Source: Clostridia bacterium
GTDB lineage: Bacteria > Bacillota > Clostridia > Oscillospirales > Acutalibacteraceae
DNA: 64,000 nt
Direction of reading: 5' to 3'
Assembly (NCBI GenBank): GCA_017441385.1
Contig: JAFRXY010000098.1
Coordinates: 3,350-67,349, forward strand
In this document: one piece after another, positions 1-58,735 of the stretch
How positions within the stretch are numbered: position 1 is the first letter of the stretch
Layout: every line of letters starts with the position of its first letter
Notes under the pieces: model-generated
What the model was told of the DNA's origin: nothing
What the model saw: the letters and a program-made list of their open reading frames with translations, nothing else
The model's database searches: none
Program-made: the position numbers and the translations under genes

Positions 1-236
1 CAACAAAGAAGACGACGACTACCAAAAAGACGACCACCACTACCAAGAAGACAACGAAAAAGCCCACTACCAAAAAGACGACAAAAAAGACCACTACCTC
101 TTTGACGACGACGCCTACCACCGAAAAAACGACAACGACTACCACTACCACTACCACCACAACTTCCAAACCTACCACACCGCCAACGACACCGCCTCCG
201 CCGGTCAGTTCTGACACCGAAAGCGCTGTGGGCTGA
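1..236 (+). CDS. 3' end of a CDS (5' partial) with a Thr/Lys/Pro-rich low-complexity C-terminal tail
   Basis: Frame 3 is open from the window edge to TGA 234-236. It reads TKKTTTTKKTTTTTKKTTKKPTTKK...TSKPTTPPTTPPPPVSSDTESAVG*. It is absent from the ORF track because it has no start codon in the window. Confidence 0.5.
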   Translation, partial: TKKTTTTKKTTTTTKKTTKKPTTKKTTKKTTTSLTTTPTTEKTTTTTTTTTTTTSKPTTPPTTPPPPVSSDTESAVG

Positions 237-9991: not shown

Positions 9992-10193
9992 GAAAATGGA
10001 CTGAATCAAGCGATTGTAAAAGAATAAAAAGAAAAAAAGAAAGCGCGCAGCGCCAACTAAGCGAGCGAACGCGAGCGCGGGGTCCAGGGGGCAAGCTCCC
10101 TGGCGGGTCAAGGGCAGAGCCCTCGAGAGGGAGCGCAGCGACCGAGCGTAATGCACTCAGACATGCAAAAGGCTTAGGCGAATACAGATACAG

Positions 10194-18294: not shown

Positions 18295-18932
18295 AAATGA
18301 AAAATATAGCGGTGTTCGTTTCCGGCGGCGGCACCAACCTGCAAGCCCTCATCGACGCGCAGGAACGCGGCGAGATCAAGAACGGGCGCATTGTCTTCGT
18401 GCTTGCCAGCAATGACAGGGCCTACGCCATTCAGCGCGCCGAGAAAGCCGACATCGAGCATCAGGTCGTTTCCCGCAAGGCCTATGCCTCCAGTGAAGAT
18501 TACGACGCGGCGATTCTCGCGGCGCTGGAACACAGGGACATTGACCTGATTGTGCTGGCGGGATTCCTTTCCATTCTCGGACCGACCGTCATCGAAAAAT
18601 ACCGCAACCGGATCATCAATATTCATCCTTCTCTTATTCCGCTGTTCTGCGGCGACGGCTTCTACGGCAAGAAGGTGCATACCGCCGTTCTTGCCAGCGG
18701 CATGAAGGTGACCGGCGCGACTGCCCATTTCGTCAACGAAATCACCGACGGCGGCGCGATTATCCTGCAAAAAGCCGTTCCCATCGAGCAGGGGGACAAC
18801 GAGGATATTCTCCAGTACCGAGTCATGCGGCAGGCGGAATGGGAAATCCTTCCCCGGGCTGTGAGCCTAGTCTGCGAGGAACGGATACGGATTGTCGGCA
18901 ATCGGACGGAAATACTGGGTGCAACAAATTAG
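18288..18932 (+). CDS. purN: phosphoribosylglycinamide formyltransferase
   Basis: [31 protein letters not shown] and TGATAHFV motifs. The start overlaps the purM stop. The stop TAG 18930-18932 is the first triplet of a repeat element. Confidence 0.93.
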
Positions 18933-18990
18933 TGAATAGAGAATAACGAATAGTGAATAGTGAATAATGTCGGAAGTCCTTCGGGCTTGA
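18930..18990 (+). repeat. 7-nt-phased stop-triplet array plus UUCG hairpin (intergenic element family, copy B)
   Basis: TAG/TAG/TAA/TAG/TAG/TAA start at 18930, 18937, 18944, 18951, 18958 and 18965, separated by NGAA spacers. The hairpin GGAAGTCC-TTCG-GGCTTG follows at 18972-18988. Confidence 0.9.
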
Positions 18991-19017
18991 AATAAAATAA
19001 ATAAGGAGATGCCAACT

Positions 19018-19290
19018 ATGCCTGAAAATGAAGTAGAAGTAGTAGAGTATAAGTTTGACACACAGTTGCTCATTGAGGGAACGGACCTCGACGAGGACGC
19101 GATCAACGATTATTTCGTGGAGAATTTTGTGGGCGACTGCCTGCTGGCCGTCGGCGACGAGGAAACCATCAAGATTCACTACCACACCAATGAGCCTTGG
19201 AAGGTGCTGGAATACTGCGCTTCCCTCGGCGAGATTCACGACATCATCGTGGAGAATATGCAGCTCCAATCCGAAGGCCTGCACGGCTAA
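19018..19290 (+). CDS. small stand-alone protein homologous to the middle domain of FakA/YloV (DAK2-fusion fatty acid kinase)
   Basis: GDCLLAVGDEETIKIHYHTNEPWKVLEYCASLGEIHDIIVENMQLQ resembles the B. subtilis YloV segment [46 protein letters not shown] (recalled from memory). ATG 19018 lies 9 nt after AAGGAG. Confidence 0.6.
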   Translation: MPENEVEVVEYKFDTQLLIEGTDLDEDAINDYFVENFVGDCLLAVGDEETIKIHYHTNEPWKVLEYCASLGEIHDIIVENMQLQSEGLHG

Positions 19291-19352
19291 TGGCAGTGTG
19301 GAGTGTGGAATTAAGGAAGGGCTGCGGCCTTGGAATGAAGGAGTGAAGAATA

Positions 19353-19928
19353 ATGGAAGCTGTTAATTTTCCCTTTGCAATGGAAGAGGAAGAAACAGCC
19401 GACAACGGGTTTGTGAAGTATGAATTCCATTATCAGCTTCACGACCGGATTCAGTGGGGAAGGATGCTCTGCGTTGTGTTGGCGGGTGTATGCACATGGT
19501 TTATGCGAGTCAACTTCTCTATCAGTCTTTTGCGCTGTCTGGATCGCATGATCATCGTATCTGTCGGATTACTGGCTTTATTCAGCCTGACGCAGAATCT
19601 GAAAATCTTCCGCGGCGTAGGTCATTGCTGGCGGGAAGGCGATAAACTGGTGATCGAATGCGGCGATAGAGAATACCGCATTGTCTCCGTCAAAGAGATG
19701 ATCGGCGGCGATACGCGATTTTTCTTCGCAAAATGTTCCACACTCAGCATTACGACCGATCGGGATATTTTTGAAGTTTTCTCGTTGCCGCTGGATTCTG
19801 ACAAACAATTCGAGGATTCTTCCGTCTTTCCGCTCTGTCAGTTCGTTCTGGGGAGTTTTCCGCATTTGCAATCCATAGAATTACCCGGACAAAAGACCAA
19901 GCACAGATATGTGAGAGTCGAAAAATAA
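19353..19928 (+). CDS. hypothetical membrane protein (two predicted TM segments plus a soluble C-terminal domain)
   Basis: GAAGGAG RBS. Hydrophobic stretches are MLCVVLAGVCTWF and IIVSVGLLALFSL. No family was recognised. Confidence 0.6.
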   Translation: MEAVNFPFAMEEEETADNGFVKYEFHYQLHDRIQWGRMLCVVLAGVCTWFMRVNFSISLLRCLDRMIIVSVGLLALFSLTQNLKIFRGVGHCWREGDKLVIECGDREYRIVSVKEMIGGDTRFFFAKCSTLSITTDRDIFEVFSLPLDSDKQFEDSSVFPLCQFVLGSFPHLQSIELPGQKTKHRYVRVEK

Positions 19929-19952
19929 TATTTTATAAGGAGTCTGAAAAAC

Positions 19953-20660
19953 ATGGAAATCATCAATTACGCGCAGGAAATCGGCGCGACTACATACCCC
20001 GGCAGAGGTATTCTGCTGGGAAAGAGCCAAAGCGGAAAATTCGCCGCCATCGCCTACTTCATTATGGGCAGAAGCACGAACAGCCGCAACCGCGTCTTCA
20101 TAGAGCAGGAAGGCGGTATCCGCACCGAAGCCTTCGACCCCTCCAAGCTGGTCGATCCTTCGCTGATTATTTATGCCCCTGTAAGAGTGCTGGGCGACGA
20201 TACCATCGTCACCAACGGCGACCAGACCGACACCATTTATGATTTCATGGCGCAGGGCAAGACCTTCGAGGACGCGCTCAGAACGCGTACCTTCGAGCCT
20301 GACCCGCCGAACTACACCCCCAGAATCAGCGGCATTGTCCATAGGAACGGCGACTATCAGCTCTCCATCCTCAAGAGCGCGAACGGCAACCCCGATTCCG
20401 CCCACCGCTTCTTCTTCGACTACAATGCGACGCCCGCCGGACAGGGTCACTTCATCCACACCTATAAATGCGACGGCAATCCCATTCCCAGCTACGAAGG
20501 CGAGCCGACTTGGGTTTCCATTGACACCGATTCCCTTGAAGAATTCACCGATGCGGTGTGGAACGCGCTCAATGAAGACAACAAGGTCTCCCTCTTTACC
20601 CGCTTCATCGACCTTGCAACAGGCGAAGTGCAGACCAAGATTGTCAACAAGAATGTCTGA
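19953..20660 (+). CDS. IMP cyclohydrolase, archaeal PurO-like family
   Basis: YPGRGILLGKSQSGKFAAIAYFIMGRSTNSRNR resembles the PurO/IMP_cyclohyd N-terminal signature. It lies in the pur operon next to an AICARFT-only purH. AAGGAG RBS. Confidence 0.75.
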   Translation: MEIINYAQEIGATTYPGRGILLGKSQSGKFAAIAYFIMGRSTNSRNRVFIEQEGGIRTEAFDPSKLVDPSLIIYAPVRVLGDDTIVTNGDQTDTIYDFMAQGKTFEDALRTRTFEPDPPNYTPRISGIVHRNGDYQLSILKSANGNPDSAHRFFFDYNATPAGQGHFIHTYKCDGNPIPSYEGEPTWVSIDTDSLEEFTDAVWNALNEDNKVSLFTRFIDLATGEVQTKIVNKNV

Positions 20661-20671
20661 GTGAGAATGAT

Positions 20672-21310
20672 ATGAGCTTAGCAACACAATATATTGAAGG
20701 ATTAAAAAATGCCTATCTCCGCAACGGTGACCTCAGCGCGGAGGAATGGATTCACTTCGAGAGCGTGAAGCAGGGAATCAGCGCGGCGGACGAGATTGCG
20801 CTGCTGGAGAAATACCCCGAAATTCCCGCCTCGCTCGTGGAATTGCTGGAATTTGCCGACGGCACCTACTGGAGAAAATACGGTGAGGAGGAAATCGCCT
20901 TCTACTTCCTCGGCTCCGACGTGGACGAGGGCGGCTATCCCTATTATCTCTACTCCGCTCAGCAGCTCATTGAGGACAACGACATGAATTACGGCGACAA
21001 TTTCGCCGATCTCTTTTACTGGTACAAGGAAGAGATGGAGAAGGAAGGCGGCAGCGACCTGTTCGTTGACCCGCGCATACGCTCCGACGGCTCCCGCTGC
21101 GACTGGCTCTGCTTTTCCGACTGCATGAACAACGGCGGCACTTCCAGCCTCTTCATCGACTACACCCCGTCGGAGTCCGGCAAAAGGGGACAGATCATCC
21201 GCCACCTTCACGACCCCGACCGGCTCGACGTGATCGCCGACAGCTTCGATGATTATCTGAAAATGCTCATCCGAATGAATTACGCCTTTGTGCAACCCGA
21301 ATTCTTTTAA
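20672..21310 (+). CDS. SMI1/KNR4 (SUKH-superfamily) protein
   Basis: SUKH-like core: IALLEKYPEIPASLVELLEFADGTYW ... FLGSD ... IADSFDDYLKMLI. Confidence 0.65.
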   Translation: MSLATQYIEGLKNAYLRNGDLSAEEWIHFESVKQGISAADEIALLEKYPEIPASLVELLEFADGTYWRKYGEEEIAFYFLGSDVDEGGYPYYLYSAQQLIEDNDMNYGDNFADLFYWYKEEMEKEGGSDLFVDPRIRSDGSRCDWLCFSDCMNNGGTSSLFIDYTPSESGKRGQIIRHLHDPDRLDVIADSFDDYLKMLIRMNYAFVQPEFF

Positions 21311-21337
21311 TAAAAATTGAAAGGACGCTTGAAAACA

Positions 21338-22513
21338 ATGAACGAAATGATGCTCAAATACGGCTGCAACCCGAACCAGAAGCCTTCCAGAATCTTTATG
21401 GAGGACGGCGGCGAACTGCCCATTGAAGTGCTCAACGGCAAGCCGGGATATATCAACCTGCTCGACGCTTTCAACAGCTGGCAGCTTGTCAGCGAACTCA
21501 AAAAGGCCACCGGCTACTGTGCGGCGGCTTCCTTCAAGCACGTCAGCCCTGCCGGCGCGGCTATCGGCACTCCTCTTTCCGATGTTCTGAAAAAGATTTA
21601 CTTCGTGGACGACCTCGAGCTTTCGCCCCTTGCCTGCGCCTATGCCAAGGCACGCGGCGCGGACAGAATGTCCAGCTACGGCGACTTCATCGCCCTTTCC
21701 GACGTCTGCGACGTTCCCACAGCGAAGATGATTCAGCGCGAAGTGTCCGACGGCGTGATTGCTCCCGGCTATGAGCCGGAAGCCCTTGAAATCCTCAAAT
21801 CCAAGAGAAAAGGCACCTACTGCATCATTAAGATGGACGAGAATTACAAGCCCGCCGAAATCGAGCGCAAGCAGGTTTACGGCGTGACCTTCGAGCAGGG
21901 AAGAAACGAGCTTGTGATTGATGACGAAATGATGAGCAACATCGTCACCGAGTGCAAGGATCTTCCCGAAACAGCCAAGCACGACCTTATCATCTCGCTC
22001 ATTACCCTGAAATACACCCAGTCCAATTCCGTCTGCTATGTCAAGGACGGTCAGGCAATCGGTGTCGGCGCGGGTCAGCAGTCGAGAGTCCACTGCACCA
22101 GACTCGCCGGCAACAAGGCGGACAACTGGTATCTCAGACAGAATGAGAAGGTGCTGAACCTGCCTTTCAAACCTGACATTCGCCGTCCCGATCGTGACAA
22201 CACCATTGACGTCTATATCAGCGACGATTACGACGATGTTCTCCGCGACGGCACGTGGGAACTCTTCTTCACCGAGAAGCCCGCACCCTTCACCAAGGAG
22301 GAAAAGAAGGCTTGGCTCGCGACCATGAGCGGCGTGTCCCTCGGCAGCGACGCGTTCTTCCCCTTCGGCGACAACATCGAGCGCGCCAAGAGAAGCGGTG
22401 TGCAGTACATTGCCGAACCCGGCGGCTCCATCCGCGACGATAACGTCATCGAGACCTGCAACAAGTACGGCATGACGATGGTCTTTACCGGGATTAGATT
22501 ATTCCATCACTAA
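21338..22513 (+). CDS. purH: AICAR formyltransferase (PurH lacking the MGS-like IMP cyclohydrolase domain)
   Basis: LKYGCNPNQKP, SFKHVSPAGAA, GVGAGQQSRV, GSDAFFPF and EPGGSIRD motifs. At about 391 aa it carries only the AICARFT domain. The start may be ATG 21338, with TTG 21317 as an alternative. Confidence 0.9.
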   Translation: MNEMMLKYGCNPNQKPSRIFMEDGGELPIEVLNGKPGYINLLDAFNSWQLVSELKKATGYCAAASFKHVSPAGAAIGTPLSDVLKKIYFVDDLELSPLACAYAKARGADRMSSYGDFIALSDVCDVPTAKMIQREVSDGVIAPGYEPEALEILKSKRKGTYCIIKMDENYKPAEIERKQVYGVTFEQGRNELVIDDEMMSNIVTECKDLPETAKHDLIISLITLKYTQSNSVCYVKDGQAIGVGAGQQSRVHCTRLAGNKADNWYLRQNEKVLNLPFKPDIRRPDRDNTIDVYISDDYDDVLRDGTWELFFTEKPAPFTKEEKKAWLATMSGVSLGSDAFFPFGDNIERAKRSGVQYIAEPGGSIRDDNVIETCNKYGMTMVFTGIRLFHH

Positions 22514-22594
22514 TGCGCAAACGCTCGCAAGCTCGCTTAGTGAATGGTGAATAGTGAATAACGAATAGTGAATAGTCCGGAGCGCTGCGCGTTG
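22514..22594 (+). repeat. intergenic element family, copy C (GCTCGC module plus 7-nt-phased triplet array)
   Basis: GCGCAAACGCTCGCAAGCTCGCTTAG is followed by TAG/TGG/TAG/TAA/TAG/TAG starting at 22538, 22545, 22552, 22559, 22566 and 22573. Confidence 0.9.
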
Positions 22595-22710
22595 AATATA
22601 ATAATATTTGGATAAATATTGTATTGCCCAACTTACTGATCATTCTGTTATCGCTGTTGGGCTTGCCATACACGGTATGGTAGAATTACAAGAAAGGAAG
22701 ACACGAAACA

Positions 22711-23991
22711 ATGACATATCTGGTAGTCGGCGGCGGCGGAAGGGAACACACCATTATCCGCAAGCTCAAGGAAAGCGCCGACGTTGACAAAATCTACTGC
22801 ACGCCGGGCAACGGCGGCATTTCCAAGGACGCGGAGGTGTTCGATGTCGCCGCGACCGACATCGAGGGCGTTGTCGCTCTCGCCAAGAAGCTCGCGGTGG
22901 ACTGCGTGTTCGTCGCCCCCGACGATCCGCTGGTCATGGGCATGGTGGACGCGCTCAATGAAGAAGGCATCCGCGCCTTCGGCCCCAGCAAAAAAGCCGC
23001 CATCATCGAGGGCAGCAAGGTCTTTTCCAAAGAACTGATGAAGAAGTACGGCATTCCCAGCGCGGCCTACGAAGTATTCAGTGACCCGAAGGAAGCGCTT
23101 GCCTACATCAAGTCCCGCGACAGCTATCCGTCGGTCATCAAGGCGGACGGACTGGCACTCGGCAAGGGCGTGGTCATCGCCGAGAATTTCGATGAAGCCA
23201 AAGCCGCCATTCATTCCATCATGGAGGACAAAATCTTCGGCAATTCCGGCAACAACATTGTCATCGAGGAATTTCTGACCGGCCCCGAAGTGTCGGTTCT
23301 CGCTTTCACGGACGGCAAGTGCGTCAAGCCCATGGTTTCCTCCATGGATCACAAGCGGGTCTTCAACGGCAATCTCGGCCCCAATACCGGCGGTATGGGC
23401 ACCATCAGCCCGAACCCCTTCTACACCGAGGAAGTCGCGCAGGAATGCATGGACAAAATCTTCCTGCCCACCATAAACGCCATGAATGCCGAGGGACGCA
23501 CCTTCAAGGGCTGCCTTTACTTCGGACTCATGCTCACTCCCAACGGCCCGAAGGTGATCGAATACAATTCCCGCTTCGGCGACCCGGAAGCGCAGGTGGT
23601 TCTCCCCAGACTGAAGACCGATTTCTCCAAGATCATTCAGGCTATCATCGATGAAAAACTCTCCGACCTCGATATCGAATGGGACGACGGCGCCTGCGCC
23701 TGTGTGATCATGGCGTCGGGCGGTTATCCCGGCAAGTATGACAAGGGCATTCCCATCGAAGGTCTTGACAAAAACGGACAGGTGGAAGGCGCGATGGTCT
23801 ACCACGCCGGAACGAAATGCTCCGACTTTGCCGGCGGCGGCTTCCTCACGAACGGCGGCAGAGTCCTCGGCGTGACCGCGAAGGGCGCGAACCTCGACGA
23901 AGCGCTTGAAAAGGCCTACGCCGCAGTCGACAAGATCAGATTCAAGGGCGCTCACTTCCGCACCGATATCGGAAGAGCATACAAGAAGTAA
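22711..23991 (+). CDS. purD: phosphoribosylamine--glycine ligase
   Basis: LVVGGGGREH, an ATP-grasp domain (VIKADGLALGKGV, IVIEEFLTGPE, EYNSRFGDPE), and C-terminal TNGGRVLGV. Confidence 0.95.
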   Translation: MTYLVVGGGGREHTIIRKLKESADVDKIYCTPGNGGISKDAEVFDVAATDIEGVVALAKKLAVDCVFVAPDDPLVMGMVDALNEEGIRAFGPSKKAAIIEGSKVFSKELMKKYGIPSAAYEVFSDPKEALAYIKSRDSYPSVIKADGLALGKGVVIAENFDEAKAAIHSIMEDKIFGNSGNNIVIEEFLTGPEVSVLAFTDGKCVKPMVSSMDHKRVFNGNLGPNTGGMGTISPNPFYTEEVAQECMDKIFLPTINAMNAEGRTFKGCLYFGLMLTPNGPKVIEYNSRFGDPEAQVVLPRLKTDFSKIIQAIIDEKLSDLDIEWDDGACACVIMASGGYPGKYDKGIPIEGLDKNGQVEGAMVYHAGTKCSDFAGGGFLTNGGRVLGVTAKGANLDEALEKAYAAVDKIRFKGAHFRTDIGRAYKK

Positions 23992-24127
23992 GGCGCTCGC
24001 GTTTGCTCGCTTTAGATAATAGTGAATAACGAATAGAGAATAATGAAGGAGCGCTTTGCGCCTTCCACATCTATTCATCATTCACCATTCCCCATTCTCT
24101 ATTCACTAAGCGAACGAATGTGAGCGT
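23992..24127. repeat. about 135-bp imperfect palindrome made of two inverted copies of the element family (copy D)
   Basis: The left arm is GCGCTCGCGTTTGCTCGCTTTAG followed by phased TAG/TAG/TAA/TAG/TAA (24013-24043). The central hairpin is GAAGGAGCGC-TTT-GCGCCTTC. The right arm is ATTCNNN heptamers followed by CTAAGCGAACGAATGTGAGCG. Confidence 0.9.
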
Positions 24128-24149
24128 CACAAAACGGGGGTTGTAAAAA

Positions 24150-24551
24150 ATGTCTGAATTAGCAAAATGCTTGGAATGGCTGGAGGAAGCATATCCCGAC
24201 GAGATTGAGCTTTATCCCCGCAAATGCGGCGATGATATTTTACAATTGCTGCCGGAGCCGCTGAGAGAATTCTACTCTTTGTACGACAGCGGTGATTTCC
24301 CCTTCGGGCATATCTTCCCGCCGGAAGAAGCGCTGAATGACCCGATTGCAAAACAGGCGTTCGGGGACGAATGGTTCCAGTTCGGCTGCGACGAGTATTT
24401 TACCTTCTGGCTGTGCCGCACGCAGCCGGACGAGCTGGGACTGTGGTTCGACCCGTGGGATCACGATTCCGAAACCGCCCCGGAGCCTGCCTTTGCAGAT
24501 TTGTCTTCCTTCCTGCATTTTGTGGAAGGGGACAGCGATATCCCGTTCTGA
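24150..24551 (+). CDS. SUKH/SMI1-KNR4-like small protein
   Basis: LLPEPLREFYSLYDSGDFPFG ... WFQFGCDEYFTFWLC ... FADLSSFLHFV follows the pattern of SUKH immunity-type domains. Confidence 0.55.
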   Translation: MSELAKCLEWLEEAYPDEIELYPRKCGDDILQLLPEPLREFYSLYDSGDFPFGHIFPPEEALNDPIAKQAFGDEWFQFGCDEYFTFWLCRTQPDELGLWFDPWDHDSETAPEPAFADLSSFLHFVEGDSDIPF

Positions 24552-25702: not shown

Positions 25703-25759
25703 AGACTGTAAGCATATCTCAGGAGGTGAACGTGCATTCATAAGCCGCAATCGGCGATT

Positions 25760-25925
25760 GTAAGCAGCAAGCGCCTGAGCCGTCTTTGCGAAAGACACGG
25801 ATATGCTTTGCATCGGAGGACGGCTGACGAGGATGGAAGTTTATCGAGATTTTCGGCGGATGCTTCCCGGCTTTGCAGAGAAGCTGCATATCGGCATACA
25901 AAATCACCGGGCGACCGGAGAACAG
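25760..25925 (+). ncRNA. glmS ribozyme (GlcN6P-dependent self-cleaving leader)
   Basis: Hallmark core GACGAGGATGGAAGTTTATCGAGATTTTCGGCGGATGCTTCCCGGCT at 25826-25872. The A|GCGCC cleavage-site motif is at 25770/25771. The element lies immediately upstream of glmS. Confidence 0.85.
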
Positions 25926-25965
25926 AAGTGCCTTTACTCTGTATACTATTGGAGGTTAAGAAAAT

Positions 25966-27957: not shown

Positions 27958-28022
27958 AACCTCCTACCTCCTACCTCCTACCTGAATTACCCCTCCTGCC
28001 TGAATAAACCTTCCTGCCTGAA
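27958..28022 (+). repeat. heptamer-periodic CCTCCTA / CCTGCCTGAA low-complexity array
   Basis: CCTCCTA occurs three times in tandem (27962-27982), followed by CTGAAT..CCTCCTGCCTGAATAAACCTTCCTGCCTGAAA. CCTCCTGCCTGA 27992-28003 is the perfect inverted complement of TCAGGCAGGAGG 27787-27798. Confidence 0.9.
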
Positions 28023-28031
28023 AAAAGGGTC

Positions 28032-32920: not shown

Positions 32921-33652
32921 ATGGAAAAATTATCCTATAAATTAGATGTATTTGAGGGGCCGCTCGATCTGCTGCTATTCCTCATTTCTAAAAACAAGCT
33001 CAATATCTATGATATTCCCGTTGCCGAGCTGCTGGAGCAGTACATGACGCACATCGACATGATGCGGCTGGAAAATATGGATGTTTCCAGCGAATTTCTC
33101 ACCATGGCGTCCCGTCTGGTGTATATCAAGACCGCCATGCTGATGCCCCGCAAGGAGGAAGCCGAGGAACTCAAGAAGGAGCTCAGCGGCGAGCTGATCG
33201 AGTACCAGCTCTGCAAACGCATGGCGGGGAAGCTGGCGGAAAAGGTGAGCTTCGACGGCTTTACACGTCCTGAGATGAAGATCAGCCACGACCTGACCTA
33301 CACCCGTTCCCACGAAGCGGCGGAACTGGTGAAGGCGTATGTCAACGCGGTAGGCAGGGGACTGCGCAAAAAGCCTCCGTCCAAGGAGAATTTCCGCGCG
33401 ATAGTGGGCAAAAAAATCGTGTCAGTTACCGAACGGGTGGGTTATGTGTTGAAAAGCATCTACCGTTCCAAGCGGCTGAAATTTTCAACCTTGTTTGAAA
33501 AGGCGGATTCCAGAAGCGAGCTGATCGCGACATTTCTCGCAGTGCTCGACCTGATACGCAGCCGCAAGGTCAATATTGACGACAACAACATTATGACGAT
33601 AAACGAGAGTGGTGGACGCAATTGGAATCAATCGGACTCAGAGCCACAGTAG
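32921..33652 (+). CDS. scpA: segregation and condensation protein A
   Basis: LDVFEGPLDLLLFLISKNKLNIYDIPVAELLEQY is the kleisin N-terminus. Confidence 0.93.
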   Translation: MEKLSYKLDVFEGPLDLLLFLISKNKLNIYDIPVAELLEQYMTHIDMMRLENMDVSSEFLTMASRLVYIKTAMLMPRKEEAEELKKELSGELIEYQLCKRMAGKLAEKVSFDGFTRPEMKISHDLTYTRSHEAAELVKAYVNAVGRGLRKKPPSKENFRAIVGKKIVSVTERVGYVLKSIYRSKRLKFSTLFEKADSRSELIATFLAVLDLIRSRKVNIDDNNIMTINESGGRNWNQSDSEPQ

Positions 33653-34203
33653 AGGCTATGATATTCGCCGGCGGCGATCCCGTCAGCTGCGAGAGAATGG
33701 CCGATGTGCTGGGTGTGGAAAAGAATACGATAGACAGCGTCTGCTGTGAACTGAATGAGCTTTATGCCCGGAGCGGTTCGGCGCTGCGGGTAGTGAAGCT
33801 GGGCGGACAGTATCAGATGACAACCCGCGACGAATTCGCGCCAATCATACGCACGCTGCTTGATCTGAAAAAGGACGCTCCTCTTTCCGGCGCCGCTATG
33901 GAAGTGCTCGCCGTGATTGCCTACAACGAGCCGGTCACCAAGAATTTTATTGAACGCGTCCGCGGTGTGGACTGTTCCGGCGTGGTCAACACCCTGCTGG
34001 CAAGAGGTCTTATTGAAGAACGCGGCAGGCTTGACCTCCCCGGCCGCCCCATGCAGTACGCCACCAGTCCCAATTTCATGCGCTGCTTCGGTCTGGAATC
34101 CATGGGGGAACTTCCCGAAATCCCCGATGAAACCGAAGCAAGCCTTCAGATGACCCTTGAAGAGGCAATAGAAGACGCTCACGTTCGTTCGCTTAGTGAA
34201 TAG
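33622..34203 (+). CDS. scpB: segregation and condensation protein B
   Basis: VEAMIFAGGDPVS, AMEVLAVIAYNEPVTK, and LLARGLIEERGRLDLPGRPMQYATS. The stop TAG 34201-34203 lies inside a repeat element. Confidence 0.92.
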   Translation: MESIGLRATVEAMIFAGGDPVSCERMADVLGVEKNTIDSVCCELNELYARSGSALRVVKLGGQYQMTTRDEFAPIIRTLLDLKKDAPLSGAAMEVLAVIAYNEPVTKNFIERVRGVDCSGVVNTLLARGLIEERGRLDLPGRPMQYATSPNFMRCFGLESMGELPEIPDETEASLQMTLEEAIEDAHVRSLSE

Positions 34204-34224
34204 CGAGCGTATGCGAGCGCATAG
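34177..34224 (+). repeat. intergenic element family, copy E (short)
   Basis: GCTCACGTTCGTTCGCTTAG is followed by triplets TAG/TAG/CGT/GAG/TAG starting at 34194, 34201, 34208, 34215 and 34222. It overlaps the last 9 codons of scpB. Confidence 0.8.
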
Positions 34225-58161: not shown

Positions 58162-58674
58162 ATGATGAACAGAAACATTGTGCTCTTCGGCTTTATGGGA
58201 TGCGGCAAGAGCACCGTCGGCGCGGAACTTTCCGCCAATACGGGGCGCGAACTGGTGGACACCGACAGGCTTATCGAGCAGACTGAGGGAATGACAGTCA
58301 GCCGGATATTCGCCGAACGCGGAGAACAGTATTTCCGCGACGCGGAACACAGAATATGCTGTGAGCTTGCCGGACGTGAACGGCTGATCATTTCCGCCGG
58401 CGGAGGTGCGCTCACCTTCCCGCGCAATATAGAGGCGCTCCGGAAGGGTTGTGAGCTGGTGCTGATCGACGTGCCTCCGGAAGTGATTTACCAGCGGCTG
58501 CAATACGATACCACCCGGCCGCTTCTCCAGTGCGAGGACAAAATGGCGGCGATCCGCGACCTGTATGCCCGCCGCGATTCCATTTACCGTCAGGCCGCCG
58601 ACCATACGGTCAACGGCGACCAGCCGCGCGGCTTTGTTGCCCTCGACATCATGAAAGCGGTAGGAATACTGTGA
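58162..58674 (+). CDS. aroK: shikimate kinase
   Basis: NIVLFGFMGCGKSTVG, DTDRLIE and ISAGGGA. The start is ATG 58162 or TTG 58153. Confidence 0.9.
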   Translation: MMNRNIVLFGFMGCGKSTVGAELSANTGRELVDTDRLIEQTEGMTVSRIFAERGEQYFRDAEHRICCELAGRERLIISAGGGALTFPRNIEALRKGCELVLIDVPPEVIYQRLQYDTTRPLLQCEDKMAAIRDLYARRDSIYRQAADHTVNGDQPRGFVALDIMKAVGIL

Positions 58675-58735
58675 GCGTTCGCTAAATGAATATTGAAGAA
58701 TGAATCATGGAGGAAGCCCTTCGGGCTTGGAATAA
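58672..58735 (+). repeat. intergenic element family, copy F (TGA-phased heptamers plus UUCG hairpin)
   Basis: TGAGCGTTCGCTAAA is followed by TGA triplets starting at 58687, 58694 and 58701. The hairpin GAAGCCC-TTCG-GGCTT then follows, matching copy B (GGAAGYCCTTCGGGCTTGRAATAAAA). Confidence 0.8.

What the first reader, a model, noticed from the sequence alone, without database searches (positions are those of the whole stretch)
18930..24127. Dispersed intergenic element family built from stop triplets phased at exactly 7 nt
At least five + strand gene ends carry related elements: purN (18930-18990), purH (22514-22594), purD (23992-24127), scpB (34177-34224) and aroK (58672-58735). An inverted partial copy lies at about 10055-10085.

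The common plan has up to three parts:
- A GC-rich module such as GCGCTCGCGTT(C/T)GCTCGCTT(T)AG. Variants are GCTCACGTTCGTTCGCTTAG and TGAGCGTTCGCTAAA.
- An array of triplets spaced every 7 nt with NGAA spacers.
- In two copies, a hairpin GGAAG(Y)CC-TTCG-GGCTTG(R)AATAAAA.

In the three pur copies there are exactly six phased triplets. They start at 18930/37/44/51/58/65 (TAG TAG TAA TAG TAG TAA), 22538/45/52/59/66/73 (TAG TGG TAG TAA TAG TAG) and 24013/20/27/34/41/48 (TAG TAG TAA TAG TAA GGA).

Because 7 = 1 mod 3, each array closes all three reading frames twice on the gene strand. The reverse strand has no stops. In two cases the first triplet is the gene's real stop codon.

Triplets of (U/N)AG separated by 4-nt spacers are the recognition pattern of the hexameric RNA-binding antiterminator HutP. 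Six triplets would fit a ring-shaped RNA-binding protein. That link is my speculation. Alternatives are REP/MITE-like selfish repeats, RNA-stability or processing signals within operons, or translational insulators.
Basis: partly seen in the sequence, partly recalled or inferred. Interest (0 to 1): 0.65.

Follow-up and report, generated by a model that had tools for sequence, protein, structure and literature searches.

The report
Modular palindromic intergenic repeat with heptamer arms
The phased stop-triplet arrays are real, but they are the inner part of a small, probably mobile, hairpin-forming DNA repeat that sits just after gene ends in one group of uncultured gut or rumen Clostridia, not a recognisable binding site for a HutP-like protein.

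Summary
Three + strand arrays carry at least 5 of 6 stop triplets phased at 7 nt, against 0.02 expected. The reverse strand has no stops. The GC-rich module recurs 4 times against 0 expected.

The arrays are not free-standing. They form the middle of an ~80-nt arm:
- a GC-rich end module (modA, (G/A)CGCTCRC-NTTY-GYTCGCTTAG), itself a small hairpin;
- 4-6 heptamers N-GAATA-R;
- a 5-8 bp GC hairpin supported by covariation;
- a trailing (T)GGAATAA.

Two inverted arms make a 136-nt palindrome after purD. Single arms, truncated arms and internally deleted copies lie after purN, purH, aroK and scpB and between whiA and dnaE.

Copies abut or overlap the upstream stop codon. They are conserved at purN and purH in relatives with 91-95% PurD identity. 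They come and go at other sites and are absent at 86% identity or below.

The invariant part of each unit is GAATA, not the NAG triplet. No window array has three consecutive NAG, so the HutP reading fails.

Heptamer arrays as such are common: permuted control heptamers are equally frequent in viral contigs.

Best reading: a clade-restricted repeat resembling REPIN, BIME, BOX and MITE elements, with slippage-prone heptamer arms. Its function is unproven.

The parts
18930..18994 (+). purN-end single arm without GC module. Heptamer array 18930-18969; its first TAG is the purN stop codon. Hairpin AAGTCC-TTC-GGGCTT at 18974-18988, then GAAATAAA and the RBS of the next gene.
   Evidence: (nhmmer E = 6e-16). 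Orthologous copies in L127, L170 and L125.
22514..22598 (+). purH-end single arm. GC module (modA, shortened) 22522-22540, array 22538-22576, hairpin AGCGC-TGC-GCGTT 22581-22593, then TGAATATA.
   Evidence: E = 7e-17. Orthologous copies in L125, L127 and L170.
23992..24127 (.). purD-end full palindrome, starting 1 nt after the purD stop. Left modA 23992-24015, left array 24013-24047, central hairpin 24045-24066, inverted array 24070-24108, inverted modA 24106-24127.
   Evidence: (-53.5 kcal/mol, z = -7.0). Absent at this site in L125, L127, L129, L170 and L171.
34174..34222 (.). scpB-end internally deleted palindrome: modA 34174-34196, one unit TGAAT(AG), inverted modA 34203-34221. The scpB ORF reads through modA and stops at TAG 34201-34203.
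   Evidence: -24.8 kcal/mol. The same site in L125 carries a ~165-nt version with arrays.
58672..58735 (+). aroK-end single arm. Truncated modA TGAGCGTTCGCTAAA, whose TGA is the aroK stop (58672-58686). Three degenerate units 58687-58707. Hairpin AAGCCC-TTC-GGGCTT 58714-58728, then GGAATAAAA. A separate terminator-like hairpin followed by a T run lies further downstream.
   Evidence: SKI domain; E = 1.4e-8.
10040..10078 (-). Inverted partial copy between whiA and dnaE: small GC hairpin (about 10043-10053) and modA (10057-10078 on the - strand), no heptamers. It directly abuts a second, unrelated GC-rich repeat (10079-10150).
   Evidence: (exact match to the module).

Best explanation
The arrays belong to a modular, non-coding, palindromic intergenic repeat family. 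It is restricted to one clade of uncultured Clostridia. It is of the same general kind as REP/REPIN, BIME, BOX and MITE elements.

**The unit.** The unit is an ~80-nt arm with four parts:
- a GC-rich terminal module (modA) that is itself a small imperfect hairpin;
- 4-6 heptamers N-GAATA-R;
- a short GC hairpin;
- a trailing GAATA.

Two arms in inverted orientation make the complete element. Single arms and internally deleted copies are its decay or recombination products.

**Proposed course of events.**
1. Copies spread to new intergenic sites by an unidentified transposase or by recombination. This step is inferred from the dispersed copies, the shared ends and the presence/absence differences between near relatives.
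2. The heptamer part turns over by slipped-strand mispairing in 7- and 14-nt register. Shown: unit number and type differ between orthologous copies, and some arrays are locally homogenised. The mechanism itself is inferred.
3. Whichever side a gene reads in from, the arm it meets first is full of stop codons in all three frames. Insertions at or even inside the 3' end of a gene are therefore tolerated, and copies accumulate right against stop codons, sometimes supplying the stop. The positions are shown. The selective filter is inferred.
4. The elements are probably co-transcribed within operons. Their hairpins may then affect mRNA stability or processing, as REP and BOX elements do. This step is inferred and untested.
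For: **Shared architecture.** It is seen over 12 arms from 7 independent loci: purN, purH, purD, scpB, aroK, whiA|dnaE and, in L144, yicC|next gene. A profile HMM built from these arms retrieves all of them at E of 1e-8 to 1e-20. This is expected, because they are the training rows. It finds no further copy in the window.

**Palindromes.** Full palindromes fold far better than shuffles (z = -7.0; z = -4.5).

**Common descent of the arrays.** A landmark unit (TAA)CGAATAG recurs inside otherwise variable arrays. This argues for descent from a common element rather than independent microsatellite births.

**Gain and loss among close relatives.**
- The purD copy is present only in the window lineage.
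- L170 has extra copies after the FakA-like gene and after glmS.
- The scpB copy is ~165 nt in L125 and 49 nt in the window.
- The purN and purH copies are shared by all relatives with 91-95% PurD identity.
- No copy was found in the ~21-kb loci of relatives with 86% or 75% identity.

**Position.** Every copy starts 0-2 nt after, or overlaps, the upstream stop codon.

**Distal hairpin.** It keeps pairing through sequence change. In 6 copies 100% of cells are paired, 4 of 6 pairs change on both sides, and 0 of 500 shuffles reach this.

**Slippage.**
- Period-14 sub-structure is present.
- Orthologous arrays have 4 versus 5 units.
- L170 has locally homogenised arrays, TGAAAAC x6 and AATAGAG/AATAGAT.

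**Mosaic neighbours.** The 10-kb copy abuts a second repeat family, as in BIME mosaics.

**Background.** Heptanucleotide tandem repeats are a known and abundant class of bacterial simple repeats (PMC4679880, citing Mrazek 2007). bear this out.
Against: - No transposase, RAYT or other mobilising gene was seen. Only about 64 kb of this genome and about 85 kb of close relatives could be read.
- No target-site duplication is visible.
- No clean empty site exists. Where the element is missing, the whole intergenic region differs.
- No similar sequence was found in plasmid or phage collections.
- At the orthologous purH site the GAATA core differs in only 6% of pairwise comparisons. The two variable positions differ in 35%, and neighbouring four-fold degenerate sites in 29-42%. 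That looks like constraint in place, which a purely selfish element would not show. Turnover by 14-nt slippage could mimic it.
- Single arms with arrays are all in sense orientation (purN, purH, aroK, two in L170). This is more regular than a neutral DNA parasite needs, but the sample is small.
Confidence: 0.6

Rival explanations
1. The element is an exapted intercistronic RNA module. The unstructured purine-rich (GAAUAR)n stretch between two hairpins would be an endonuclease entry site, for example for RNase Y. After cleavage the upstream mRNA ends in the modA hairpin, which protects its 3' end. The downstream mRNA begins with the GC hairpin, which protects its 5' end from RNase J. Segments of one operon would then have different stabilities.
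For: - The order is constant: stop codon, modA hairpin, array, hairpin, GAATA, RBS of the next gene.
- The distal hairpin is kept by covariation.
- The GAATA core is conserved at orthologous sites, well below the neutral rate.
- Single arms are in sense orientation.
- None of the hairpins is followed by a U-tract, so they are not terminators.
- From my own knowledge, not tested here: RNase Y prefers cuts after G in AU-rich single strands a few nt upstream of a structure, and REP hairpins stabilise upstream mRNA in E. coli.
Against: - No expression or RNA-end data are available.
- Folding energies of the sense and antisense strands are the same, so nothing marks the structure as RNA rather than DNA.
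- Full palindromes would hide the array in a long duplex.
- The whiA|dnaE copy is inverted.
- The purN array is largely degenerate in L125.
- The element is absent from slightly more distant relatives with the same operon, so it is dispensable.
Confidence: 0.2
2. The array is a binding site for a multimeric RNA-binding protein that reads triplets spaced 7 nt apart. This could be HutP-like, or another ring or cooperative binder. It is the first reader's speculation.
For: - The 7-nt spacing equals the UAG-N4 spacing of HutP sites (my own knowledge).
- There are about five units between two hairpins.
- The core is conserved at orthologous sites.
- One relative copy (L125 scpB arm) does have three or more consecutive NAG.
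Against: - The conserved letters are GAATA, not NAG. The triplet's third base is G in 25 and A in 20 of 47 units.
- No window array has three consecutive NAG.
- HutP needs two sets of three NAG about 20 nt apart in a leader that overlaps a terminator. Here the arrays are contiguous, lie 3' of unrelated genes, and have no terminator.
- The arrays also occur in inverted orientation.
- No HutP or TRAP domain was found in the annotated genes of the window.
- TRAP spacing (2-3 nt) does not fit.
Confidence: 0.07
3. The arrays are independent simple-sequence repeats. Each would have arisen on the spot by polymerase slippage, with no element and no common descent.
For: - Heptamer arrays of many kinds are abundant across phyla and viruses.
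- Permuted heptamers are as frequent as GAATA ones: 52 versus 54 and 40 viral contigs.
- This genome has another heptamer array, (ACCTCCT)x3.6, at 27959-27983.
Against: - The arrays come with the same GC module on one side and the same type of hairpin on the other, in the same order, at seven loci.
- Unit number is narrow (3-6).
- Units are imperfect, with a shared landmark unit.
- Inverted pairs form palindromes.
Confidence: 0.05
4. The elements are recombination sites that mark gene-cassette junctions, like attC sites. They would be used to insert or remove small accessory genes inside operons.
For: - The pur operon of this clade carries small accessory genes that differ between relatives: an 88-aa FakA-like gene, a 191-aa gene, SMI1_KNR4 and a 137-aa gene.
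- Elements sit at several of these junctions. In L170 the 88-aa gene is flanked by elements on both sides.
Against: - No integrase is nearby.
- The ends do not resemble the attC core sites, judged by reading the sequence.
- Copies also lie where no accessory gene differs (aroK, scpB, yicC).
- The 133-aa gene after purD is present with or without the element.
Confidence: 0.05

Closest known systems
REP / REPIN elements (repetitive extragenic palindromes; inverted REP doublets mobilised by RAYT transposases) and BIME mosaics of E. coli and Pseudomonas
   Same: - A short imperfect-palindrome end module.
- Inverted doublets that form one long hairpin, alongside single 'decayed' copies.
- High local density: 6 loci in 64 kb.
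- Strictly extragenic position, often within a few nt of a stop codon.
- Mosaic association with other repeat modules.
   Different: - The conserved GTAG foot of REPs is absent.
- The spacer between the inverted modules is made of phased heptamers rather than unique sequence.
- No RAYT gene could be looked for.
- The host is a Clostridia lineage, where no such family is known to me.
BOX elements of Streptococcus pneumoniae (boxA - variable number of boxB - boxC) and MITEs such as Correia elements of Neisseria
   Same: - Modular build with a variable number of internal sub-repeats.
- Terminal inverted repeats and no ORF, 50-180 nt long.
- Intergenic and co-transcribed position with a stable secondary structure.
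- Presence/absence polymorphism between close relatives.
   Different: - The internal repeat is 7 nt (45 nt in BOX).
- No target-site duplication was seen (Correia elements duplicate TA).
- No related autonomous IS was found.
Heptanucleotide tandem repeats: cyanobacterial STRR, and TAACTGA repeats of Beggiatoaceae, Cyanobacteria and Bacteroidetes (PMC4679880)
   Same: - Tandem 7-nt units in intergenic DNA.
- A stop-containing unit, so all frames are closed on one strand.
- Patchy phylogenetic distribution and unknown function.
   Different: - TAACTGA repeats are near-perfect. They mostly sit just upstream of start codons over the RBS and are not flanked by fixed modules.
- Here the units are imperfect, 3-6 in number, embedded between a GC module and a hairpin, and placed just after stop codons.
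HutP binding sites in the Bacillus subtilis hut leader; TRAP binding sites in the trp leader
   Same: (U/N)AG-like triplets at regular spacing. The 7-nt period equals that of HutP sites.
   Different: - NAG is not the conserved feature.
- There are no two sets of three triplets, no leader or terminator context, and no hut or trp genes.
- TRAP spacing is 5-6 nt.

Membership tests
HutP binding site | Two sets of three NAG (UAG) triplets, each separated by 4 nt | tested here: not met
   The window arrays read TAG TAG TAA TAG TAG TAA, TAG TGG TAG TAA TAG TAG, and TAG TAG TAA TAG TAA. No array has a run of three NAG. The third base is G in 25 and A in 20 of 47 units.
HutP binding site | Location in a 5' leader overlapping an intrinsic terminator, upstream of hut genes | tested here: not met
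   The copies lie 3' of purN, purH, purD, scpB and aroK. There is no terminator-like hairpin with a U-tract at the pur-operon copies scanned; the scpB copy was not scanned, and the aroK copy has a separate terminator-like hairpin further downstream.
HutP binding site | A hutP-family gene in the genome | not testable with these tools
   Only the 64-kb window could be read. No HutP or TRAP domain was found among its annotated genes.
TRAP binding site | 9-11 (G/U)AG triplets separated by 2-3 nt | tested here: not met
   The spacing is 4 nt throughout, with at most 6 triplets.
REP / REPIN | Short imperfect palindrome repeated many times in extragenic DNA | tested here: met
   modA folds as GC / TC.TC internal loop / RC:GY / 4-nt loop. 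The R:Y pair covaries: A:T or G:C in 10 of 11 family copies, by my count from the sequences. modA gives 4 hits in the window against 0 expected. All are extragenic or overlap a stop codon.
REP / REPIN | Inverted doublets forming one long hairpin | tested here: met
   Window 23992-24127 and 34174-34222; L125 scpB; L144.
REP / REPIN | Conserved GTAG tetranucleotide at the foot of the hairpin | tested here: not met
   The module ends in CTTAG or CTAAG. There is no GTAG.
REP / REPIN | A RAYT (Y1 transposase) gene flanked by the repeats | not testable with these tools
None was found in the window or the relatives' loci.
MITE | Terminal inverted repeats, small size, no ORF | tested here: met
   The modA copies at both ends of the 136-nt purD element are about 22-nt inverted repeats.
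MITE | Target-site duplication | tested here: inconclusive
   No direct repeat flanks the three full copies read. No clean empty site is available, because the whole spacer differs where the element is absent.
MITE | Presence/absence polymorphism between close relatives | tested here: met
   The purD copy occurs only in the window lineage. L170 has extra copies. No copy was found in the ~21-kb loci read from relatives with 86% PurD identity or less.
MITE | A parent IS or transposon with the same ends | tested here: not met
   There was no blastn hit in plasmids or phages and no modA match in IMG/VR. Chromosomes of the clade could not be searched.
Heptanucleotide simple-sequence repeat (STRR / LSSR type) | Head-to-tail 7-nt units with copy-number change between strains | tested here: met
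   TRF reports period 7 and 14. Orthologous purH arrays have 4 versus 5 units. L170 has homogenised arrays.
Intrinsic terminator | GC hairpin followed by a U-tract | tested here: not met
   The hairpins of the pur-operon copies are followed by GAATA(A/T)A, not by T runs. The scan lists none at these elements on the + strand.
Known Rfam RNA family | Match to a curated covariance model | tested here: not met
   At gathering score the only hit in the window is glmS. In E-value mode over 18800-24300 only chance-level miRNA and snoRNA hits appear.

The most novel reading that the evidence does not exclude
The arm (modA hairpin, five phased GAAUA units, GC hairpin) is not just a parasite. It would be a cis-acting RNA module that the host uses inside operons. 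It could be a processing and stability insulator, or a landing platform for a still unknown protein that reads GAAUA every 7 nt. The GAATA core and the hairpin would then be kept by selection at orthologous sites.
Probability: 0.2. Interest if true: 0.7.

Novelty: new variant of a known kind. Interest (0 to 1): 0.4.

Why it matters
If the main reading is right, this is a new family of small palindromic repeats in a poorly known group of uncultured Clostridia. Several consequences follow.
- The family is a useful marker for strain and clade typing.
- It can mislead annotation. The repeats create long stop-free antisense ORFs, and they supply or replace gene ends, as at scpB.
- It shows how a microsatellite can be built into a mobile or mosaic element.
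- The 'stop codons on entry from either side' design may explain why such elements pile up flush against gene ends.
- It would matter more if the conserved GAATA phasing and the hairpin prove to be used by the cell for operon mRNA processing or protein binding.

Tried and rejected
**1. A universal GAATA or TRRNGAA heptamer motif.**
This looked striking at first.
- Controls with permuted cores gave the same numbers: 52 versus 54 and 40 viral contigs for six units.
- I therefore rejected the idea. The hits reflect the general abundance of heptamer repeats.

**2. Orientation bias of such arrays relative to genes in those loci.**
- The counts were 40:16 in viral loci and 24:21 in genome loci.
- My longest-ORF gene calls pick antisense ORFs (seen), so I give this little weight.

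**3. RNA-versus-DNA test by G-U asymmetry.** Sense and antisense energies are equal, so the test is uninformative.

**4. Known RNA families.** None matched.

**5. A parent element in plasmids, phages or IMG/VR.** None was found.

**6. PurR PurBox or Spo0A box resemblance of the unit AATAACGAATAGT.**
- The resemblance was recalled from memory only.
- I rejected it because the same unit occurs in copies at scpB and yicC, and the match is partial.

**7. Primase-site and Cheo-box ideas.** Rejected on reading the sequence.

**8. Metagenome scan with the GC module.**
- It gave 37 hits, roughly the number I estimate for chance. Only L144 and L157 are true relatives.
- The other hits led to a side observation, reported under things noticed in passing.

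**9. Literature.**
- Searches for the repeat sequence itself found only two unrelated human cell-biology papers.
- One look-up of the aroK product failed because the start codon I chose is not the one on record.

Full report

Yes.
- Tandem Repeats Finder reports period-7 arrays, and period-14 arrays, at 18933-18969, 22538-22576 and 24073-24106.
- I counted runs in which at least five of six triplets spaced 7 nt apart are stop codons. There are three clusters, all on the + strand (18930, 22538, 24013). First-order Markov simulations of the window give 0.02.
- In these arrays each + frame holds 1-5 stops, and the three reverse frames hold none.
- A two-unit pattern occurs 13 times against 0.16 expected.
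- The GC-rich module occurs 4 times against 0 expected.
- The region is identical in four independent metagenome assemblies. It has diverged counterparts in other samples. It is not an assembly artefact.

**2. What is actually there?**

The arrays are the middle part of a larger unit. I aligned twelve arms from the window and from relatives (alignment A1). One arm has four parts:
- a GC-rich end module, modA: (G/A)CGCTCRC-NTTY-GYTCGCTTAG;
- four to six heptamers, best read as N-GAATA-R;
- about four linker bases;
- a short GC-rich hairpin that starts GGA(A)G, followed by (T)GGAATAA.

The window copies take several forms.
- The copy after purD (23992-24127) is two such arms in inverted orientation sharing the central hairpin. 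It folds at -53.5 kcal/mol, with z = -7.0 against shuffles.
- The copies after purN, purH and aroK are single arms. purN lacks modA, and aroK has a truncated one.
- The scpB copy (34174-34222) is an internally deleted palindrome: modA, one unit, inverted modA. At the same site a 94%-identity relative (L125) carries a ~165-nt version with arrays on both sides.
- The copy at 10040-10078 is inverted and has modA and a small hairpin but no heptamers.
- A profile HMM of the arms finds every one of these copies and no further copy in the window.

A seventh, independent locus was found in a JGI metagenome contig (L144). It is a full palindrome between a yicC-like gene and the next gene.

**3. Which letters matter?**

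Over 47 units the counts are:

| Position in N-GAATA-R | Count of 47 |
|---|---|
| 1 (N) | T 25, A 14, C 7 |
| 2 (G) | 43 |
| 3 (A) | 47 |
| 4 (A) | 47 |
| 5 (T) | 45 |
| 6 (A) | 41 |
| 7 (R) | G 25, A 20 |

The invariant core is GAATA. The third letter of the triplet is free to be A or G. Stops in all frames follow from T-A-R plus the frequent TGA, but the stop triplet itself is not the best conserved feature.

**4. Position.**

Every copy begins at, or within 2 nt of, the stop codon of the upstream gene.
- At purN the first TAG is the stop.
- At scpB the ORF runs through modA. The last ten codons (E D A H V R S L S E) are element sequence, and the ORF stops in TGAATAG.
- At aroK the TGA lies in the truncated modA.
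- At purD, purH and L144 the module starts 0-2 nt after the stop.

In a full palindrome the arm met first is stop-rich whichever side a ribosome comes from.

The hairpins are not followed by U runs, and no terminator or promoter signal stands out at the elements.

**5. Relatives.**

PurD homologues give a graded series.

| Locus | PurD identity | purN end | purH end | purD end | Other |
|---|---|---|---|---|---|
| L125 | 94% | arm (array degenerate) | arm | no element; another hairpin | ~165-nt palindrome at scpB |
| L127 | 92% | arm | arm | none; purD overlaps the next gene | - |
| L170 | 91% | arm | arm | none | two further copies |
| L129, L171 | 86% | none | none | none | none in ~21 kb |
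| L172 | 75% | none | none | none | none in ~21 kb |

- The arms at the purN and purH ends share the same architecture but differ in unit sequence and number. The purH arrays have 4 or 5 units.
- L170's two further copies are modA with six TGAAAAC-type units after the small FakA-like gene, and an array with a hairpin after glmS.

The family is therefore confined to a narrow clade. Some of its insertions are old and shared, and others are recent or lost.

A rumen Clostridiales genome (L101) has the same layout, with a different GC module: GC module, TTAG, four TGAATAR units, hairpin, GGAATAA, then the RBS of the next gene.

**6. Structure and constraint.**

The distal hairpin keeps a 6-bp stem and a 3-nt loop while its sequence changes (AAGTCC/GGGCTT, AAGGGC/GCCCTT, AGCGCC/GGCGCT and others).
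- In six copies all 36 cells pair.
- Four of six pairs show changes on both sides.
- No shuffle out of 500, and no slid register, reaches the observed values.
- The copies were chosen for equal stem length, so this is illustrative rather than unbiased.

Sense and antisense strands fold equally well. I cannot say whether the structure matters as RNA or as DNA.

At the orthologous purH site the GAATA core differs in 6% of pairwise comparisons. The two variable positions differ in 35%, and four-fold degenerate sites of the adjacent purH gene in 29-42%. This may be selection in place. It may also come from array turnover by 14-nt slippage, which keeps a uniform core while shuffling the variable positions. 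The period-14 signal and the locally homogenised arrays of L170 show that such turnover happens.

**7. Are the heptamers special beyond this clade?**

Many of these had an inverted array nearby. A scan of viral contigs with (GAATARN)x4 did the same.

This looked like a universal motif, so I ran controls. Six-unit arrays with the real core occur in 52 viral contigs. Arrays with permuted cores GATAA and AGTAA occur in 54 and 40.

The core is not special. Heptanucleotide tandem repeats are simply common. The literature already says so: Mrazek 2007 as summarised in PMC4679880, which also describes stop-containing TAACTGA repeats of unknown function.

The window itself has another heptamer array, (ACCTCCT)x3.6, at 27959-27983.

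What is specific here is the composite element, not the 7-nt repeat.

**8. The HutP idea.**

The 7-nt period does equal the spacing of UAG triplets in HutP sites (my own knowledge). The defining features fail, however.
- NAG is not conserved.
- No window array has three NAG in a row.
- There are no two separated sets of triplets.
- The position is 3' of unrelated housekeeping genes rather than a terminator-containing leader.
- Arrays also occur inverted.
- No HutP or TRAP domain was found in the window's genes as far as they were annotated.
- TRAP spacing does not fit either.

Whether the genome encodes such a protein elsewhere could not be tested.

**9. Best explanation.**

This is a clade-restricted, modular, palindromic intergenic repeat of the REP/REPIN, BIME, BOX and MITE kind.
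- Its arms contain a slippage-prone heptamer tract.
- It spreads or recombines by an unidentified route.
- It survives flush against gene ends because the arm that faces the gene closes all three frames.
- It is probably transcribed with the operons it sits in.

Shown:
- the shared architecture;
- palindromic doublets together with single and deleted forms;
- gain and loss among close relatives;
- abutment to stop codons;
- maintenance of the hairpin;
- change in unit number.

Inferred:
- mobility;
- the selective filter;
- any effect on mRNA.

Weak points:
- no transposase was seen;
- no target duplication was seen;
- no clean empty site exists;
- no match was found in plasmid or phage collections.

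I put this reading at 0.6.

The main rival, at 0.2, is that the arm has been taken over as an intercistronic RNA processing or stability module. It would offer a single-stranded purine-rich cutting zone between a 3'-protecting and a 5'-protecting hairpin. This would explain the constant order, the sense orientation of single arms and the conserved core. It rests on no expression data.

**10. Novelty and interest.**

Small palindromic repeat families and heptamer repeats are both known. Their fusion into one element with a fixed order and a 'stops on entry' design, in an uncultured Clostridia clade, is a new variant rather than a new kind. I found no description of it. I score interest at 0.4. 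It would be higher only if the conserved GAAUA phasing proves to be read by a protein or a nuclease.

Noticed in passing
L131-L167 (JGI metagenome contigs), e.g. L145 330-390, L149 230-290, L139 5980-6030, L152 4100-4145: The modA core recurs in unrelated contigs (GC 0.38-0.69) as a 24-nt cap, CTAA-GCTCRC-ATTC-GYTCGC-TAAG, at the tip of long hairpins with variable stems. In 16 of 37 hits CTAA lies immediately 5' of the core. The R:Y pair is mostly A:T or G:C. The hairpins lie between ordinary housekeeping genes with no transposase alongside. The total number of hits is about what I estimate for chance, but the shared flanks are not chance. This may be a REP-like hairpin motif shared by several phyla.
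   Followed up: partly
window 10079-10150; L171 7760-7850: A second GC-rich dispersed repeat, containing GGTCAAGGGCAGAGCCC, directly abuts the inverted modA copy between whiA and dnaE. In the 86%-identity relative the same repeat sits after purN. That is the junction occupied by the heptamer element in the window's clade.
   Followed up: partly
window 18930-24551, compared with L125, L127, L129, L170, L171: The pur operon of this clade is interrupted by small accessory genes that differ between close relatives: an 88-90-aa FakA-like_M gene, a 191-aa gene reduced to a 47-aa remnant in L170, SMI1_KNR4, a 137-aa gene in L125 and L170, and an acetyltransferase in L129. Several of these junctions carry the repeat.
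   Followed up: partly
window 27959-28026: Another heptamer array, (ACCTCCT)x3.6, whose reverse complement is the Shine-Dalgarno-like AGGAGGT. It is followed by an 18-nt repeat containing CCTGAATAAAC. It lies between a terminator and a strong promoter-like site (TTGACA-17-TACAAT) upstream of an HTH_5/ArsR - P-type ATPase operon.
   Followed up: no
window 33622-34203: The last ten codons of scpB, and its stop codon, are encoded by the repeat element. The C-terminus of this ScpB therefore differs from that of relatives without the element.
   Followed up: partly
window 25759-25945: A glmS ribozyme (Rfam RF00234, 89 bits) lies upstream of glmS. This is expected.
   Followed up: no
L232 6264-6563 (IMG/VR contig, GC 0.60): A viral contig alternates (GAATAAT GAATAGT)n arrays with a 46-nt GC-rich module containing AGCGAGCGTTAGCGAGAC. 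That stretch resembles the reverse complement of modA (about 16 of 20 bases). The same kind of pairing of a GC module with heptamers therefore occurs in an unrelated replicon.
   Followed up: no
L214 4320-4425, 6348-6450, 12897-12990 (IMG/VR contig, GC 0.52): One viral contig holds several 'array - central hairpin - inverted array' palindromes built from GAATAR units. The plan matches the purD element, but the centre differs and there is no modA.
   Followed up: no
window 4-168: Tandem repeats of period 15-27 (for example ACCACTACCAAAAAGACAACAAAAAAG) lie at the very start of the window. They probably fall within the 3' part of a gene that runs off the window edge.
   Followed up: no
window 22648-24081 (- strand) and similar: The reverse strand of the arrays has no stops. 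Mechanical ORF lists therefore show long antisense ORFs running through the elements, such as the 477-aa ORF antisense to purD. These are likely artefacts and can mislead gene calling.
   Followed up: partly
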